From the sequence record MT833283.1: DNA of 64,000 bases; one strand, 5' to 3'. Position numbers and translations under genes: made by a program. Of the stretch, positions 40-5,018 are shown one piece after another. The notes below the pieces were generated by a model. The model ran no database searches. It saw nothing but the letters and a program-made list of their open reading frames with translations, and was not told the DNA's origin. This DNA is from Escherichia coli phage vB_EcoS_Ace. Each line of letters begins with the position of its first letter. Positions within the stretch are counted from its first letter, which is position 1.

Positions 40-774
40 TTAGGCAACTTTTAATTTATCAATGAATTGTTGCGGAGTGGTACTATATTCCGCGCGTTCT
101 TCCTCGGTCATACCTTCCCAACACATTTTTAAACGTTCGGCTAGGAATTGATAATCGTTATCATCATCAAGCGATTCATCAATAAAGGTTTCACCGATCA
201 ATGTTACGCCGATTGATAGGATATCATTAACGGCTTGAGCGTCCAGCGTTTTAAATCCAGCACTTGCCGCCGCCGATAATACACCTTTATGATCATCAAT
301 CATTGTAAAATCAGCGTTAGGATATAGCTGTTTAAACAGTTCAAAGTAATAAGATTTATATACAGCGTCTTTGCTGTGATATATTTCGCTAACCTTATTT
401 GCATCAAAGTATTTATGTAATGTATCGCGGGAAAATACGCGAATATTACTATTTCCGCGCCCTCGCAAGCCTTGTTTGCGTAAATAAAAATAATCGCTTT
501 TAGACATTAAGCGCGCGGTACAAATTATATTTAATGTATTTGCATCATTCATACATTGGCGCATATATTCAACCAACGGCAATAAAGAATCTTGCATAAT
601 TAAATCATGTTTGCAGGCTTCGCGGGAATACTTAACTAAATCTAAATTCCCGTTATCATCAAAGCAAGGTGCTACACGATGGAAAGAATTTATAATCGTT
701 CCGTCTAAATCCCAAATCATAACGCGGGAAATATGCGGGAAAGCGCGGGTAATATTCATGTTGACTTGATTCAT
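40..774 (-). CDS. dmp: 5'-deoxyribonucleotidase, HAD family (T5 Dmp-like)
   Basis: 244-aa ORF; HAD motif I (IWDLDGTI); position and size match T5 pre-early dmp as recalled. Confidence 0.75.
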   Translation of the reverse strand: MNQVNMNITRAFPHISRVMIWDLDGTIINSFHRVAPCFDDNGNLDLVKYSREACKHDLIMQDSLLPLVEYMRQCMNDANTLNIICTARLMSKSDYFYLRKQGLRGRGNSNIRVFSRDTLHKYFDANKVSEIYHSKDAVYKSYYFELFKQLYPNADFTMIDDHKGVLSAAASAGFKTLDAQAVNDILSIGVTLIGETFIDESLDDDNDYQFLAERLKMCWEGMTEEERAEYSTTPQQFIDKLKVA

Positions 775-861
775 TTGTTACATTCTCCATTTAAGGGATT
801 TAGGTTAATTCAATCTTGCCAGCTAATTATATTAGATTAGCTGGCAATGTTCAATTAACTA

Positions 862-1254
862 TTAGTTAGTGAGGCCATACGCTAGCGCGTCACCGATAAA
901 GGAAAGATCTTCACCATGTACGCTAGAACGGATACCCGCGCAAGTATAAACCATTGCGCTAGCTTCGGGATTGCAGACCGGACACGGCTTAACAACTGCA
1001 AACGCTAGACCTGATTTAAGCGCATCAATAATGATTGTTTGCACTGTCAAAGTATCAGCGTAAACGCCTTTTGCTTTCGTATGGCTTGCCACTTTGCCGG
1101 TATCATAAGCAAAGGTAGTAACCTGCAAAGCGTCGTTATAATTCAGCAAATCGAAATTAACTTGCCCCGCTTCGACGTGATAACGTTCGCCATTAGAGTA
1201 AACTAGAACGATGGAAGAAGTAGCGCGATCAAAAGGAATGTTTTGGTTTTTCAT
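862..1254 (-). CDS. hypothetical pre-early protein (130 aa)
   Basis: ORF in track; same strand and tight spacing with dmp/A1; no recognisable motif. Confidence 0.5.
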   Translation of the reverse strand: MKNQNIPFDRATSSIVLVYSNGERYHVEAGQVNFDLLNYNDALQVTTFAYDTGKVASHTKAKGVYADTLTVQTIIIDALKSGLAFAVVKPCPVCNPEASAMVYTCAGIRSSVHGEDLSFIGDALAYGLTN

Positions 1255-1290
1255 GTTTATGACTCCAGATTGTTTAATTACGGGATTAAT

Positions 1291-1569
1291 TTATTTATTG
1301 ACTTCTAAACTTACAACAAAGTTTAAATTTGTTTCTTTCCACACATCGGGAATATCTTGTTCCTGCAAATAATCCCTCGCTTCATAATCAGTTTCAAAGG
1401 AATAAAAATCCCCTGATTCAATTATATAAGAATGACCATTTATCGGATTTTGATAAATATAACAGTCACCATCTTTTATATTACGGTATACAGTGCCATG
1501 CCCGATATTATCAATGGCATATGTATCAGACATATTTTTACTAGATGGAAGATTAATTTTAATCGTCAT
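1291..1569 (-). CDS. hypothetical pre-early protein (92 aa)
   Basis: ORF in track directly downstream of A1 on the same strand. Confidence 0.5.
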   Translation of the reverse strand: MTIKINLPSSKNMSDTYAIDNIGHGTVYRNIKDGDCYIYQNPINGHSYIIESGDFYSFETDYEARDYLQEQDIPDVWKETNLNFVVSLEVNK

Positions 1570-1621
1570 TTAATTATCCTTTTATTAATGGCGGCATATT
1601 TCAACCGCCGATTAAATTTAA

Positions 1622-3286
1622 TTATGCAAAGAATTTACCGTTTTTGAAATCAATCAAAGTACGTTGCCCGTTTGCATAGGTAATTAAATGCGTTTGCGTC
1701 CAGCTTGACGCGCCCACGTTGTAGCCCATATCAAGGGAACCAGCAACGCCAGCGGTATAAACGCCGCCGTAAATGCTAGCCGTGTGAGTGTGACCAGTGT
1801 TAAGGCGTCCCAACTTTTTAAACTGCTTAGGATTGCCCCGACTGCCGTTAATGCCATTGTGACCATGTACGCCGCACTCAATGCCAGCGATTTTAAATGA
1901 CTGGTCAGTAGTCAGGAAAATGGCGTTAAATACACATCCTGCAACGTAGCGGAGGGCGTAATCCAATACGTTAAAGGTATCATTCTGTTTTGCAATTGCA
2001 GAGTAAATCGCAGCGTTTAAGCTGTGGTATAGTTCGGCGTTTGCGGGGTCGTCTTTAATGTTAGCGTTACGATCATCTAGCCAGCGTGAAAGAGCTAAAT
2101 CATGGTTAGATTCAACAATGATTGTTTGAGAGAAATCACGCTCCATTGATTCTAAAACGCGTCCAGTATCGATAAGATCATCTAAAACCTTGTCACGTCC
2201 TGCGGCGTACTGTTTAGCAAGGAATACACCACTTGCGCGGTTATGATGATTGCGGGATGTAAAATCGTGTACGTCATGGATAAACTGATATTTCGGTTTA
2301 AGAATATCAAGCAATGAATTTTCACTAGCCCATGACGCAATGGCGCATTCATCATCTAATTTTTCGGCGTGAATATCGCCATATTGCAGACCTAAAACAT
2401 GATCAGATGTTTCAAAACATCCGGTAGGCATAGCGCAAATATTCAAATCGTAGAACATCCCGCTTTCGTCCATTGTTTCAAGCTGGCGAACAAAAAATTC
2501 GCCGTCGTCGTCAAATTCTACTAATAAAGCGCCGTAATTATGCAGCGCCTCAGCTTTTTGACCTGCTTTCTGCTGAATATAGTTTTTAAGTGTAGCCGTT
2601 CCGGTGGAGTACATACGGCGTACTACTTCACCTTTTAACGCTGGCACACTTTCAGCGGTGATTTTAGCGTGACCAATTGCCAGACCTTCGATATTTAAAG
2701 CGGTGGCGGTTTCTGCGAATCCTGAAAGCGGATAATCAGCCGTTGGCAAAACGTTAATTTCAGCCATGAAAGCAAAGCGGCGGTTATTTAAAAATACGTT
2801 TTTATCACAAACATATTTATCAAATGCGGGATCGTATTTAATACCGTTTGCACCTTCCCCGTTCTGGAATCCATTTTTATTATAAATGAATTTACTGATT
2901 AGCAATTCAGCGCCGATATATTCAGCGAATTTTTCCAGACTTGCTAAAAAGTTTTTATGCGGGAAAGTATTATTTTGAACCGACGTTAGAATAAAACGGC
3001 GACCGGATTTAACTTCCCATTGTTCAACGGTACTAGAAACAATCCCCGCCGCTTCGGGGCGATCATCATTTTTAATCGCCTTTTCAGCTTTTGCCGCTTT
3101 CGGTTTCGCTGGCTTATTTGCTTCCAACCAGTCACAAATTGCGGTCGAATGTTTCGGCGTATCATAAACAGCTTTTGAAATATCGTCGCAAACTTCCAAT
3201 TTAGTAGCGCGTAAACGCTTACCGTAGAAGTTAAAATCTGCGGCCATTTTCAAAATTTGAGCTTGTTTTTCTGCGGAAATATTCAT
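1622..3286 (-). CDS. A1: A1-like pre-early protein with C-terminal calcineurin-like metallophosphoesterase (Mre11/SbcD-type nuclease) domain
   Basis: 554-aa ORF; motifs GDIHAE, VESNHD, GHNGINGSRGN, GHTHT in the order expected for metallophosphoesterases; size matches T5 A1 as recalled. Confidence 0.7.
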   Translation of the reverse strand: MNISAEKQAQILKMAADFNFYGKRLRATKLEVCDDISKAVYDTPKHSTAICDWLEANKPAKPKAAKAEKAIKNDDRPEAAGIVSSTVEQWEVKSGRRFILTSVQNNTFPHKNFLASLEKFAEYIGAELLISKFIYNKNGFQNGEGANGIKYDPAFDKYVCDKNVFLNNRRFAFMAEINVLPTADYPLSGFAETATALNIEGLAIGHAKITAESVPALKGEVVRRMYSTGTATLKNYIQQKAGQKAEALHNYGALLVEFDDDGEFFVRQLETMDESGMFYDLNICAMPTGCFETSDHVLGLQYGDIHAEKLDDECAIASWASENSLLDILKPKYQFIHDVHDFTSRNHHNRASGVFLAKQYAAGRDKVLDDLIDTGRVLESMERDFSQTIIVESNHDLALSRWLDDRNANIKDDPANAELYHSLNAAIYSAIAKQNDTFNVLDYALRYVAGCVFNAIFLTTDQSFKIAGIECGVHGHNGINGSRGNPKQFKKLGRLNTGHTHTASIYGGVYTAGVAGSLDMGYNVGASSWTQTHLITYANGQRTLIDFKNGKFFA

Positions 3287-3394: not shown

Positions 3395-3640
3395 TTATTC
3401 TAGAATTGGCATAAGACTAGAACTAAAACCGCAACTAATAGCCAGCGTTAAAAATATAATCGCTAGATATTTTTGTTTATTAGCTTGACGTTTAAACATA
3501 TCAGCGGCATAAGCTGAATTAATGCCGATAATAGAGATTATATATTTGCCGTAATTAAATATAAATATAGCGGCAACTATAAATAAACCTAAAATAAACG
3601 CTTCACTAGGGAAGAAGATCATTTTAATAACTCCGGTCAA
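3395..3640 (-). CDS. small hydrophobic membrane protein (81 aa)
   Basis: ORF in track; two predicted hydrophobic helices; between A1 and A2. Confidence 0.45.
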   Translation of the reverse strand: MTGVIKMIFFPSEAFILGLFIVAAIFIFNYGKYIISIIGINSAYAADMFKRQANKQKYLAIIFLTLAISCGFSSSLMPILE

Positions 3641-3680: not shown

Positions 3681-4097
3681 TTATTCACCTGCGGCCTGTT
3701 TTACTTCCTCCGCTACGCCTAACAATTGCGCTACGGCTTCCAGCGTTTCCAGTTTTGCACTTTCCAGACTTGCCAGATCATCAGCGTCTTTGATAACGCC
3801 AGCATCAATGGCATGTTTAGCCATAACGCGCACATAGTGAGCTTTACGGACACTAGACCCGCCGCCAACTTTACGCGGTTTATCACTTTTCTGGTACGCT
3901 TTTGCGCTTGTCAGTTTAGAACGTACAGAAACAGGGCTTGCAGCGCCAACGGCGGCGGCAATTTCTTTCAGGCCGTCACTGTTAGCAAATTCAATTCCGC
4001 TTTTAGCGACCATTTCAGAATACATAGAAACAGCCTTTTCGGTGTTTTCTTCGTTCCAAGAGAATTTTGCGGTTTTTTCGGTTTTAACGTTAGACAT
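3681..4097 (-). CDS. A2: A2-like pre-early DNA-binding protein (138 aa)
   Basis: ORF size and position right of A1 match T5 A2 as recalled; Ala/Lys-rich; assignment by synteny only. Confidence 0.45.
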   Translation of the reverse strand: MSNVKTEKTAKFSWNEENTEKAVSMYSEMVAKSGIEFANSDGLKEIAAAVGAASPVSVRSKLTSAKAYQKSDKPRKVGGGSSVRKAHYVRVMAKHAIDAGVIKDADDLASLESAKLETLEAVAQLLGVAEEVKQAAGE

Positions 4098-4383: not shown

Positions 4384-4635
4384 TTATGCGATAGCTTGCC
4401 ATTTATCATCTTTCTGAATGATTTTTACAACGTCGCCAGATTTAACACGGACGTTATAAATAGGCTTGCCGTGGTTACTGCGTTCCGTTTCCGCATAGAC
4501 CGCTTCAATCTTATCAAAGGGATCAAGCGCCGCACCTTTAATACGTTCGGCTTTTCCGGTTAATTCATCCGTTTTAGTTACAAAAGGAATGAATACAGAT
4601 TGACCTACTTTCGGCGCGGTAATAACGTTTTGCAT
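4384..4635 (-). CDS. hypothetical protein (83 aa)
   Basis: ORF in track, minus strand, pre-early region. Confidence 0.45.
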   Translation of the reverse strand: MQNVITAPKVGQSVFIPFVTKTDELTGKAERIKGAALDPFDKIEAVYAETERSNHGKPIYNVRVKSGDVVKIIQKDDKWQAIA

Positions 4636-4799: not shown

Positions 4800-5018
4800 T
4801 CAAGCGTTTTTTAAACTTTTTTCGATTTGATGTGAGTTATATAAATCAATCATTATATTACGCCACACCATTTCCAGACCTTGCTGCTTACCTTTCTTGT
4901 ATTGCTTGAATCTGTATTTTACAGATCTTTGCGCTACTGTCAACAAATTTTTTGTTCTGCTATCCAGTGGGCTAGCAGGTTTTGCACTAATCACTAAAGC
5001 GTTTTTTGATTTGATCAT
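4800..5018 (-). CDS. small basic protein (72 aa), flanked by 23-bp inverted repeats
   Basis: ORF in track; Lys/Arg-rich; bracketed by IR 4768-4790 / 5051-5073. Confidence 0.4.
   Translation of the reverse strand: MIKSKNALVISAKPASPLDSRTKNLLTVAQRSVKYRFKQYKKGKQQGLEMVWRNIMIDLYNSHQIEKSLKNA

What the first reader, a model, noticed from the sequence alone, without database searches (positions are those of the whole stretch)
862..1569. Uncharacterised pre-early ORFs between dmp and A1 as host-takeover or anti-defence candidates
Pre-early genes of T5-type phages act in the first minutes (host DNA degradation, shut-off, protection from restriction), and some of these activities have no assigned gene from established knowledge. 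ORFs 862..1254 (130 aa) and 1291..1569 (92 aa) have no recognisable motif and sit in this early-injected block; 4384..4635 is similar.
Basis: inference. Interest (0 to 1): 0.4.

Follow-up and report, generated by a model that had tools for sequence, protein, structure and literature searches.

The report
Known T5 pre-early accessory genes
The two ORFs are real, early-expressed genes of a T5-like phage, orthologues of T5.002 and T5.003; published tests on the T5 versions show they are neither toxic nor needed for growth, and the smaller one sits in a slot that swaps fast-evolving acidic proteins, so a host-specific counter-defence role stays possible but untested.

Summary
Window 862..1254 (130 aa) and 1291..1569 (92 aa), both on the minus strand, are genuine genes between dmp and A1 of an Epseptimavirus-like T5 relative. 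They are orthologues of T5.002 and T5.003; 4384..4635 is T5.007 (Pfam DUF7177).

Two published screens found 002, 003 and 007 non-toxic. Deletions of 002, 007 and dmp-002-003 are viable, with normal host-DNA degradation; virulence is unchanged for the 002/007 deletions and falls only as with dmp loss alone. The anti-defence half is untested.

Neither protein has a recognisable domain or a convincing structural neighbour. New here:
- The position between A1 and 002 is a polymorphic slot. It holds a T5.003-type, an 85-aa type, an Eps7-type, an HNH endonuclease, or nothing.
- The small alleles are remote homologues or share a fold. All are acidic and low in GC, and they are exchanged independently of the backbone.
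- gp002 is a remote homologue of the 140-153-aa protein at the same position in Klebsiella, Serratia and Erwinia Demerecviridae.

Best guess: non-enzymatic binding proteins with conditional, host-dependent roles. These are ordinary known unknowns with a modest new angle.

The parts
862..1254 (-). gp002: 130-aa orthologue of T5.002 (phrog_4576). Cytoplasmic, mildly acidic (pI 5.4), beta-rich with a C-terminal helix.
1291..1569 (-). gp003: 92-aa orthologue of T5.003 (phrog_23906). An acidic (pI 4.4), low-GC (30%) allele of the polymorphic slot between A1 and 002.
1255..1290 (-). 003-002 intergenic spacer carrying the GGAG ribosome-binding site of 002. It is conserved with GreteKellenberger and forms the downstream boundary of the swapped cassette.
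1570..1621 (-). A1-003 intergenic spacer with a GGCGG...CCGCC hairpin and the AAGGA ribosome-binding site of 003. It is conserved with GreteKellenberger and forms the upstream boundary of the swapped cassette.
   Evidence: Serratia phage Slocum annotates a terminator at the same place.
804..852 (-). Strong hairpin immediately after the 002 stop codon. It overlaps a promoter-like TTGAAC-17-TATAAT site upstream of dmp.
   Evidence: dG -26 kcal/mol, z -7.2. Stem sequences covary across Demerecviridae. Promoter scan.
4384..4635 (-). gp007: 83-aa orthologue of T5.007 (Pfam DUF7177, phrog_3747). Basic (pI 9.0).
1622..3286 (-). A1 (context): the essential pre-early gene, upstream in the same transcription direction.
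   Evidence: PHROG 'DNA transfer protein' E 1.6e-242. 90% aa identity to T5 A1.
40..774 (-). dmp (context): dNMP 5'-monophosphatase, the last gene of the run.

Best explanation
ORFs 862..1254 and 1291..1569 are the T5.002 and T5.003 orthologues of an Epseptimavirus-like T5 relative. They lie in the same orientation between A1 and dmp, on the DNA injected in the first step.

Shown: they are real, conserved and transcribed. In T5 they are non-toxic and dispensable in laboratory E. coli.

Shown here: gp003 is one allele of a family of small (83-96 aa), acidic, low-GC proteins. A beta-sheet-plus-helix fold is predicted for gp003 and matched in the Klebsiella, 85-aa and (more weakly) Eps7-type proteins. 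The family always lies directly downstream of A1 and has diverged below 20% identity. Whole-ORF alleles are exchanged between otherwise near-identical phages, and the slot is sometimes replaced by an HNH homing endonuclease or lost. gp002 is a faster-than-A1-evolving protein conserved at this position across Demerecviridae.

Inferred: neither is an enzyme. Both most likely act by binding another macromolecule stoichiometrically. gp003-family proteins probably bind and neutralise a variable, non-essential host factor, most plausibly a strain-specific immunity protein. That would explain why they are harmless to the cell and dispensable on defence-poor laboratory strains. gp002 is a conserved fine-tuner of cycle timing; in T5 its loss delays lysis by 5 min and raises burst size by about 40%.
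For: Identity and reality.

Non-toxic and dispensable in T5: PMC8201957; bioRxiv 10.64898/2026.04.02.716235.

No enzyme-like domain or fold:
- Pfam, PADLOC and PDB profile searches found nothing.
- The cysteines of gp002 are not conserved in its distant homologues.

Slot polymorphism:
- Five slot states were seen.
- Three different alleles occur in phages whose 002 gene is at least 96% identical at the nucleotide level.
- The swap boundaries coincide with the ORF ends.

Remote homology and shared fold:
- T5.003-type versus 85-aa type: hhalign Prob 78%, P 1.7e-5, 76 colinear columns.
- The Erwinia KEY slot ORF bridges to the Eps7-type (P 1.7e-4 and 4.8e-3; P 2.5e-4).
- Foldseek against BFVD ranks the Klebsiella, 85-aa and Eps7 slot proteins 1st, 2nd and 5th among all viral models.

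Shared properties: pI 4.0-4.7 in every allele. GC is 7-14 points below the flanking genes in every lineage.

Independence from phage partners: gp002 stays 96-100% identical and the last 600 nt of A1 stay 90-93% identical at the nucleotide level while the slot protein is replaced.

gp002 remote homology to the syntenic 140-153-aa proteins: Prob 77.5%, P 1.9e-5. The global score is 28.2, against 3.4 +/- 2.3 for column-shuffled controls.
Against: - No direct evidence for any binding partner or for anti-defence activity. None of the published work tested these genes on hosts carrying defence systems.
- The T5.003-type allele is present both in restriction-insensitive T5 and in Bas27 of the restriction-sensitive genus Epseptimavirus, like the phage of this window. 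It therefore cannot by itself explain T5 restriction insensitivity.
- Slot alleles do not partition by host genus: each occurs in both Escherichia and Salmonella phages.
- The slot is empty in several viable phages.
- The same mild lysis-delay phenotype was seen for deletions of 002, 005 and 007. It may be a generic operon effect rather than a gp002-specific function.
- Eps7-type homology rests on weak statistics. The gp003 model was built from an alignment that already included 85-aa-type sequences.
Confidence: 0.4

Rival explanations
1. Classical host-takeover effectors: the proteins inhibit an essential host process such as transcription, replication or division in the first minutes of infection.
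For: They lie in the first-step-transfer block, next to A1 and dmp. Other pre-early products (A1, hdi, 011, 013, 015, hegG, dmp) are toxic takeover factors.
Against: T5.002, T5.003 and T5.007 were non-toxic in two independent arabinose-induced screens in three E. coli strains. Host DNA degradation is unchanged in the deletion mutants.
Confidence: 0.07
2. Modulators of phage partners: gp002 and/or gp003 bind A1, A2 or Dmp. Possible roles include tempering the A1 nuclease, protecting phage DNA from it, or tuning nucleotide catabolism and second-step transfer.
For: The gene order A1, slot, 002, dmp is invariant across Demerecviridae genera. How T5 DNA escapes A1 is unknown. Deleting 002 shifts lysis timing and burst size.
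Against: The slot protein is replaced by alleles below 20% identity, or lost, while A1 and gp002 stay essentially the same. That is unexpected for a co-evolving partner. Deleting dmp-002-003 behaves like deleting dmp alone. A1 alone is sufficient for DNA degradation.
Confidence: 0.2
3. One of these genes (002, 003 or the conserved 007) is the long-sought pre-early function that makes T5 insensitive to restriction and CRISPR, or that blocks host Dam/Dcm methylation.
For: The gene for restriction insensitivity has never been identified and is thought to be pre-early. T5p007 was proposed as a candidate. Avoidance of methylation is shared by Tequintavirus and Epseptimavirus, as are 002 and 007. 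gp003 is small and acidic, like known DNA-mimic inhibitors (the comparison is from my own knowledge).
Against: Epseptimaviruses, including carriers of the T5.003-type allele (Bas27), are reported as restriction-sensitive as a genus, although they encode 002, a slot protein and 007. Site avoidance and host DNA destruction may explain part of the phenotype.
Confidence: 0.12
4. The slot gene is an evolutionary passenger with little or no function. It would be a remnant region churned by homing-endonuclease traffic, and gp003 would contribute nothing to fitness.
For: The slot is empty, or filled by an HNH endonuclease, in viable phages. It has low GC. There is a truncated duplicate in NBEco002. 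The dmp-002-003 deletion adds nothing to the dmp deletion.
Against: Purifying selection acts within each allele class: dN/dS is 0.065-0.20. Length, fold, acidity and position are conserved across genera despite sequence divergence. In Bas33 the gene occupying this position is transcribed.
Confidence: 0.15

Closest known systems
T5.002 (AAS77049; phrog_4576) of Escherichia phage T5
   Same: Full-length orthologue at 74% aa identity. Same position between the slot and dmp, same strand. The motifs YSNG, IDAxKSGLAF, CAGIRS and ADALAYGL are conserved.
   Different: Epseptimavirus-type allele, 130 rather than 131 aa. In T5 the function is equally unknown: non-toxic, dispensable, and deletion delays lysis by 5 min with a larger burst.
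T5.003 (AAS77050; phrog_23906) of Escherichia phage T5
   Same: 92 aa, 74% identity, same slot directly downstream of A1.
   Different: Here it sits in an Epseptimavirus-like backbone whose closest relatives carry a different slot allele: Eps7-type in GreteKellenberger and 85-aa type in HildyBeyeler.
T5.007 / Pfam DUF7177
   Same: ORF 4384..4635 matches over the full length, E 2.2e-44, and has the same position downstream of A2.
   Different: None of note. Its function is unknown; it was proposed but never tested as the restriction-insensitivity gene.
Small acidic phage inhibitors of host nucleic-acid enzymes (T7 Ocr, T7 gp5.9, PBS2 Ugi, many anti-CRISPRs); comparison from my own knowledge
   Same: gp003-family proteins are small, single-domain, strongly acidic, expressed first, non-toxic and dispensable on laboratory hosts, and they evolve fast.
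YkuJ (PDB 2ffg), Bacillus subtilis protein of unknown function
   Different: 9% identity, a marginal score and no known function, so it gives no functional lead.

Membership tests
T5.002 orthologous group (phrog_4576) | Full-length sequence match to the family profile | tested here: met
   E 1.6e-77 over residues 1-129 of 130. 58 homologues at 58-98% identity.
T5.002 orthologous group (phrog_4576) | Position between the A1-proximal slot and dmp in the first-step-transfer region, same strand | tested here: met
T5.003 orthologous group (phrog_23906) | Full-length sequence match and position directly downstream of A1 | tested here: met
   E 6.4e-48 over residues 1-92. 74% identity to T5 ORF003. 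Synteny.
Pfam DUF7177 (T5.007) | Score above the Pfam gathering threshold over the whole domain | tested here: met
   150 bits against a cut-off of 27, positions 1-83 of 83.
Toxic host-takeover pre-early proteins (A1, hdi, 011, 013, 015 class) | Growth inhibition or a morphological defect when expressed alone in E. coli | not testable with these tools
   Published for the T5 orthologues only: 002, 003 and 007 were not toxic. The alleles of this window have not been tested.
Anti-restriction DNA mimics (Ocr/ArdA type) | Strongly acidic surface | tested here: inconclusive
   gp003 has pI 4.4 and net charge -8; all slot alleles have pI 4.0-4.7. This is acidic but not diagnostic. gp002 has pI 5.4.
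Anti-restriction DNA mimics (Ocr/ArdA type) | Sequence or fold similarity to a known member | tested here: not met
Anti-restriction DNA mimics (Ocr/ArdA type) | Presence correlates with restriction insensitivity of the phage | tested here: not met
   The T5.003-type allele occurs in T5 (insensitive) and in Bas27, whose genus Epseptimavirus is reported as restriction-sensitive.
Known anti-phage defence or counter-defence protein models (PADLOC-DB) | Profile match | tested here: not met
   No hits at E<=1 for any of the three proteins.
Zinc-ribbon / CxxC metal-binding proteins (considered for gp002) | Invariant set of four metal ligands | tested here: not met
   C91 or C94 is missing in P0049 and P0054. 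All the cysteines are absent from the remote homologues in Klebsiella, Serratia and Erwinia phages. The PARP1 zinc-finger hit has E 0.72.

The most novel reading that the evidence does not exclude
The position just downstream of A1 would be a dedicated counter-defence cassette slot of Demerecviridae. It would hold one ancient, hypervariable family of small acidic proteins. The alleles (T5.003-type, 85-aa type, Eps7-type and others) would each neutralise a different host immune or restriction factor, be kept as a long-lived polymorphism by frequency-dependent selection, and be shuffled between phages by recombination promoted by homing endonucleases. The neighbouring conserved gp002 (or gp007) could then be part of the still unidentified pre-early protection of T5-type DNA.
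Probability: 0.2. Interest if true: 0.6.

Novelty: already known. Interest (0 to 1): 0.3.

Why it matters
T5-type phages protect their DNA from restriction, CRISPR and RecBCD, avoid host methylation and spare their own DNA from A1. No gene has been assigned to any of these functions since the 1970s. These ORFs are among the few remaining pre-early candidates.

Published data already remove them from the list of toxic takeover factors. The analysis here shows that gp003 belongs to a swap-prone, fast-evolving acidic family, the signature expected of host-specific counter-defence genes. It also suggests the published figure of T5.003 being in fewer than 15% of Demerecviridae may undercount the family, because divergent alleles escape BLAST. 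T5 deletion mutants already exist, so the idea can be tested cheaply. If it fails, the genes are simply dispensable accessory ORFs.

Tried and rejected
- Pfam, PADLOC, PHROG and PDB sequence searches gave no functional family. PHROG hits are 'unknown function'.
- Two hits were dismissed as noise: 'Scone' designer propeller proteins for gp003 (no stretch passes on its own) and the PARP1 zinc finger for gp002 (E 0.72).
- An exhaustive HMMER search with the gp002 profile against 1.84 billion representatives found only its own cluster.
- A CX5R phosphatase or rhodanese reading of the invariant CAGIRS motif was rejected: the spacing is CX3R, and the motif is absent from remote homologues.
- A zinc-site reading of CPxC...C was rejected for the same reason.
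- The 'baseplate wedge subunit' annotation on some 002 orthologues was rejected as implausible for a pre-early gene and unsupported by any search.
- Direct sequence homology between the T5.003-type and the Eps7-type was not detectable (P 0.08). It appears only through a bridging sequence and fold ranking.
- Literature searches for locus tags and for T5 RecBCD inhibitors found no functional data on these genes.

Full report
**What the window is.** The first 5 kb match T5-like phages at up to 96.7% nucleotide identity. The best matches are Escherichia phages SpoonbillGilly and GreteKellenberger; the latter is classified in genus Epseptimavirus. The minus strand carries, in transcription order, A2 (3681..4097), a small membrane ORF (3395..3640), A1 (1622..3286), ORF 1291..1569, ORF 862..1254 and dmp (40..774). 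Further upstream lie 4384..4635 and 4800..5018. The annotated T5 record has the same order: dmp T5.001, T5.002, T5.003, A1, T5.005, A2, T5.007, T5.008. All lie inside the left terminal repeat that is injected first.

**Checking the observation.** The three ORFs exist at exactly the stated coordinates. Each of the two main ORFs has a ribosome-binding site: GGAG for 862..1254 and AAGGA for 1291..1569.
- ORFs of this length are about 17 times more frequent in this region than in shuffled sequence.
- Across related loci, dN/dS is 0.09 for the 130-aa protein and 0.20 for the 92-aa protein, against 0.05 for A1 and 0.065 for dmp.
- In RNA-seq of the Tequintavirus Bas33, the two genes lying between A1 and dmp, matched by position and size only, have expression values of 4425 (408 nt) and 1143 (291 nt). 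A1 has 4925 and dmp 2218 (supplement of PMC13250531).

They are real genes. 'No recognisable motif' is right for the first two. The third is Pfam DUF7177.

**Identity.**
- The 130-aa protein is the orthologue of T5.002: phrog_4576 at E 1.6e-77, 74% identity to T5.002, and matches in 438 phage records.
- The 92-aa protein is the orthologue of T5.003: phrog_23906 at E 6.4e-48 and 74% identity. It is found in only 32 phage records, 12 of them Klebsiella phages at about 41% identity.
- ORF 4384..4635 is T5.007.

**What is already published on the T5 orthologues.**
- Mahata et al. cloned T5.002.003 and .007, among 13 genes, under pBAD. Only 008, 011 and 015 were toxic (PMC8201957).
- Annor et al. 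expressed all 17 pre-early genes. Toxic genes were dmp, A1, hdi, hegG, 011, 013 and 015, so 002, 003 and 007 were not (bioRxiv 10.64898/2026.04.02.716235).
- Annor et al. also obtained deletions of 002, 005 and 007, the triple deletion, dmp-002-003, and a phage retaining only A1, A2, hdi and 009.
- Deleting 002 leaves the eclipse period, virulence index and host-DNA degradation unchanged. It delays lysis by 5 min and raises burst size by about 40%.
- That paper reports 003 in fewer than 15% of Demerecviridae and 002 in at least 60%.
- The authors, and Davison, note that roles under other conditions or against defence systems remain untested. Davison also notes that the FST region has more functions than genes, and names T5p007 as a candidate for restriction insensitivity.

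It is not met for anti-defence, which has not been tested.

**Search for function.** Neither protein matches any Pfam, PADLOC or PDB sequence profile.
- A full HMMER scan of 1.84 billion representative proteins with the gp002 profile returned only its own cluster.
- AlphaFold models are of moderate quality for gp002 (pLDDT 72.9, pTM 0.65; beta-rich with a C-terminal helix). They are better for gp003 (pLDDT 82.8, pTM 0.69, five concordant models; a disordered N-terminus, four to five strands and one helix).
- The near-invariant CPxC and invariant CAGIRS motifs of gp002 are missing in individual orthologues and in all remote homologues. A metal site or catalytic cysteine is therefore unlikely to be the core of the family.

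I found no evidence that either protein is an enzyme.

**New observation 1: a polymorphic slot.** Comparison with GreteKellenberger shows that 002, A1 and both intergenic spacers align closely. The ORF between them is replaced, exactly from start to stop codon, by an unrelated-looking ORF of the same 92 aa. In 37 IMG/VR loci plus reference phages, the interval between A1 and 002 takes one of five states:
- a T5.003-type 92-aa ORF;
- an 85-aa ORF;
- an Eps7-type 92-96-aa ORF;
- a 169-aa HNH homing-endonuclease-like ORF in place of the small gene;
- nothing, with only about 66 nt between the A1 stop and the 002 start.

In the phage database the three small types occur in 32, 183 and 86 records. 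Among phages whose 002 gene is at least 96% identical in nucleotides to the window, all three small alleles occur. The more distant Tequintavirus-like clade has the T5.003-type, the 85-aa type, HNH and empty states. An Eps7-type allele also occurs in a much more distant relative whose A1 is 73% identical.

The window's allele is about as diverged from T5's (74%) as gp002 is. The alleles therefore look old rather than recently imported.

**New observation 2: the small alleles are probably one family.**
- Profile-profile comparison of the T5.003-type (with the Klebsiella variants) against the 85-aa type gives Prob 78%, P 1.7e-5, over 76 colinear columns.
- The slot ORFs of Serratia phage Slocum and Erwinia phage KEY also match (P 8e-4 and 1.7e-4). 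KEY_176 additionally matches the Eps7-type in its C-terminal half (P 4.8e-3).
- With KEY added to the Eps7 group, the comparison to the T5.003/85-aa profile reaches P 2.5e-4.
- Foldseek of the gp003 model against all BFVD viral models ranks the Klebsiella-phage protein first (E 2e-8), the 85-aa protein of Yersinia phage phiR2-01 second (E 3e-4, TM 0.71/0.76), and the Eps7 protein fifth (E 0.015, TM 0.55). The slot-sized protein of Pectobacterium phage My1 ranks ninth.
- All alleles are acidic, with pI 4.0-4.7 and net charge -6 to -10. All have GC 7-14 points below their flanking genes; the window has 30.1% against 44.5% and 42.5%.

Caveats: the gp003 model used an alignment that included 85-aa sequences, and the Eps7 link is statistically weak. 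Even so, the published '<15%' figure for 003 probably undercounts the family.

**New observation 3: gp002 is wider than it looks.** Klebsiella (Sealy), Serratia (Slocum) and Erwinia (KEY) phages, and metagenomic contig L043, carry a 140-153-aa ORF between the slot and dmp.
- The profile comparison to gp002 gives Prob 77.5%, P 1.9e-5.
- The global score is 28.2, against 3.4 +/- 2.3 (max 9.3) for 60 column-shuffled controls.
- Three colinear motifs are shared: YSNG, IDAxxxGLxF and ADAL.

The gene order A1, slot, 002, dmp is thus an old feature of the family. gp002 evolves much faster than A1: dN is about 0.17 against 0.03, and aa identity to T5 is 74% against 90%.

**Mechanism.** What is shown: early co-oriented expression, non-toxicity and dispensability (in T5), no enzyme signature, and, for gp003, a small acidic fold that tolerates extreme sequence change and whole-allele replacement.

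What I infer: both act by binding. For gp003 the partner is more likely a variable, non-essential host factor than a phage protein, because gp002 and A1 stay essentially constant while the slot protein is swapped or lost. A strain-specific immunity component fits best, and it would also explain the lack of phenotype on laboratory strains. The HNH endonuclease occupying the slot offers a plausible route for cassette exchange, as nuclease genes are reported to mark recombination boundaries (cited in PMC10644984). For gp002 the only functional datum is the small shift in lysis timing and burst size. This shift is shared with the deletions of 005 and 007, so it may be an operon effect.

I put about 0.4 on the overall 'conditional binding or counter-defence accessory protein' reading. 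The A1/Dmp-modulator reading gets 0.2, near-neutral passenger status for the slot gene 0.15, the specific restriction-insensitivity or anti-methylation role about 0.12, and classical take-over under 0.1.

**Against the restriction idea.** Tequintaviruses are broadly restriction-insensitive, whereas Epseptimaviruses are sensitive (PMC8594841, PMC10644984). The T5.003-type allele occurs in T5 and also in the Epseptimavirus Bas27 (TrudiGerster) and in this Epseptimavirus-like window. 002 and 007 are present in both genera. None of them can therefore be sufficient for the Tequintavirus phenotype, although allele-specific effects are not excluded.

**Verdict.** The finding is accurate as an observation and reasonable as a question. 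However, these are known, already partly tested genes of unknown function. Identical or near-identical proteins are in GenBank. The toxic take-over reading is contradicted by published work, and the anti-defence reading is open. The slot polymorphism and the two remote-homology links add a modest, testable angle. Interest 0.3; novelty: already known.

Noticed in passing
window 804-852 (minus strand), between the 002 stop and the dmp start: A strong extended hairpin (21 bp, dG -26 kcal/mol, z -7.2, none of 200 shuffles as stable) with no U-tract. A hairpin with a different, covarying stem sequence sits at the same place in T5, in more than 25 T5-like loci and in Klebsiella, Serratia and Erwinia relatives. 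It overlaps a TTGAAC-17-TATAAT promoter-like site (854..826). It could be an mRNA 3'-end or processing element, or a palindromic operator for a dmp promoter.
   Followed up: partly
window 1586-1607 (minus strand), between the A1 stop and the 003 start: A GGCGG...CCGCC hairpin (dG -13 kcal/mol, z -2.1), conserved in GreteKellenberger. The Serratia phage Slocum record annotates a terminator at the equivalent place. In Bas33 RNA-seq the gene at the slot position reads about 4-fold lower than A1.
   Followed up: partly
L006, L023, L024, L032, L036 at positions 2470-2979: A 169-aa HNH homing-endonuclease-like ORF (GC 28.6%) occupies the A1-002 interval in place of the small slot gene. This may be the vehicle for cassette exchange.
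   Followed up: partly
L020/L021 at positions 2577-2690 (phage NBEco002): A 37-aa truncated duplicate of the N-terminus of the 85-aa slot ORF lies just upstream of the full copy. It looks like a recombination scar.
   Followed up: no
window 1291-1569 versus flanks; also L001, L002, L004, L005, L040, L042: Every slot allele has GC 7-14 points below its neighbours. The window has 30.1% against 44.5% for 002 and 42.5% for A1. The T5.005-like membrane ORF (3395..3640) is also low, at 30.5%.
   Followed up: yes
GenBank records MK005300/NC_048089 (STG2) and NC_106514 (ESCO40): Orthologues of 002 are annotated 'baseplate wedge subunit'. This is implausible for a pre-early gene and no search here supports it.
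   Followed up: partly
proteins P0062, P0023, P0031; phage records MG065692, MG065642: T5-like pre-early proteins or genomes are labelled Enterococcus faecalis, E. coli, Salmonella enterica, 'Campylobacter phage' or 'Listeria phage'. These are probably contamination, or phage contigs inside bacterial assemblies.
   Followed up: no
window 3395-3640 (minus strand): The mechanical ORF starts at TTG (81 aa), but the annotated homologue in GreteKellenberger is 75 aa. The true start is probably the ATG six codons in (MIFFPSEAF...). PHROG calls the family a membrane protein (T5.005 family).
   Followed up: no
window 1622-3286 versus 862-1569: A1 is 90% identical in amino acids to T5 A1, whereas the two downstream genes are only 74% identical to their T5 orthologues. 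Evolutionary rates within one transcription unit are therefore very uneven.
   Followed up: yes
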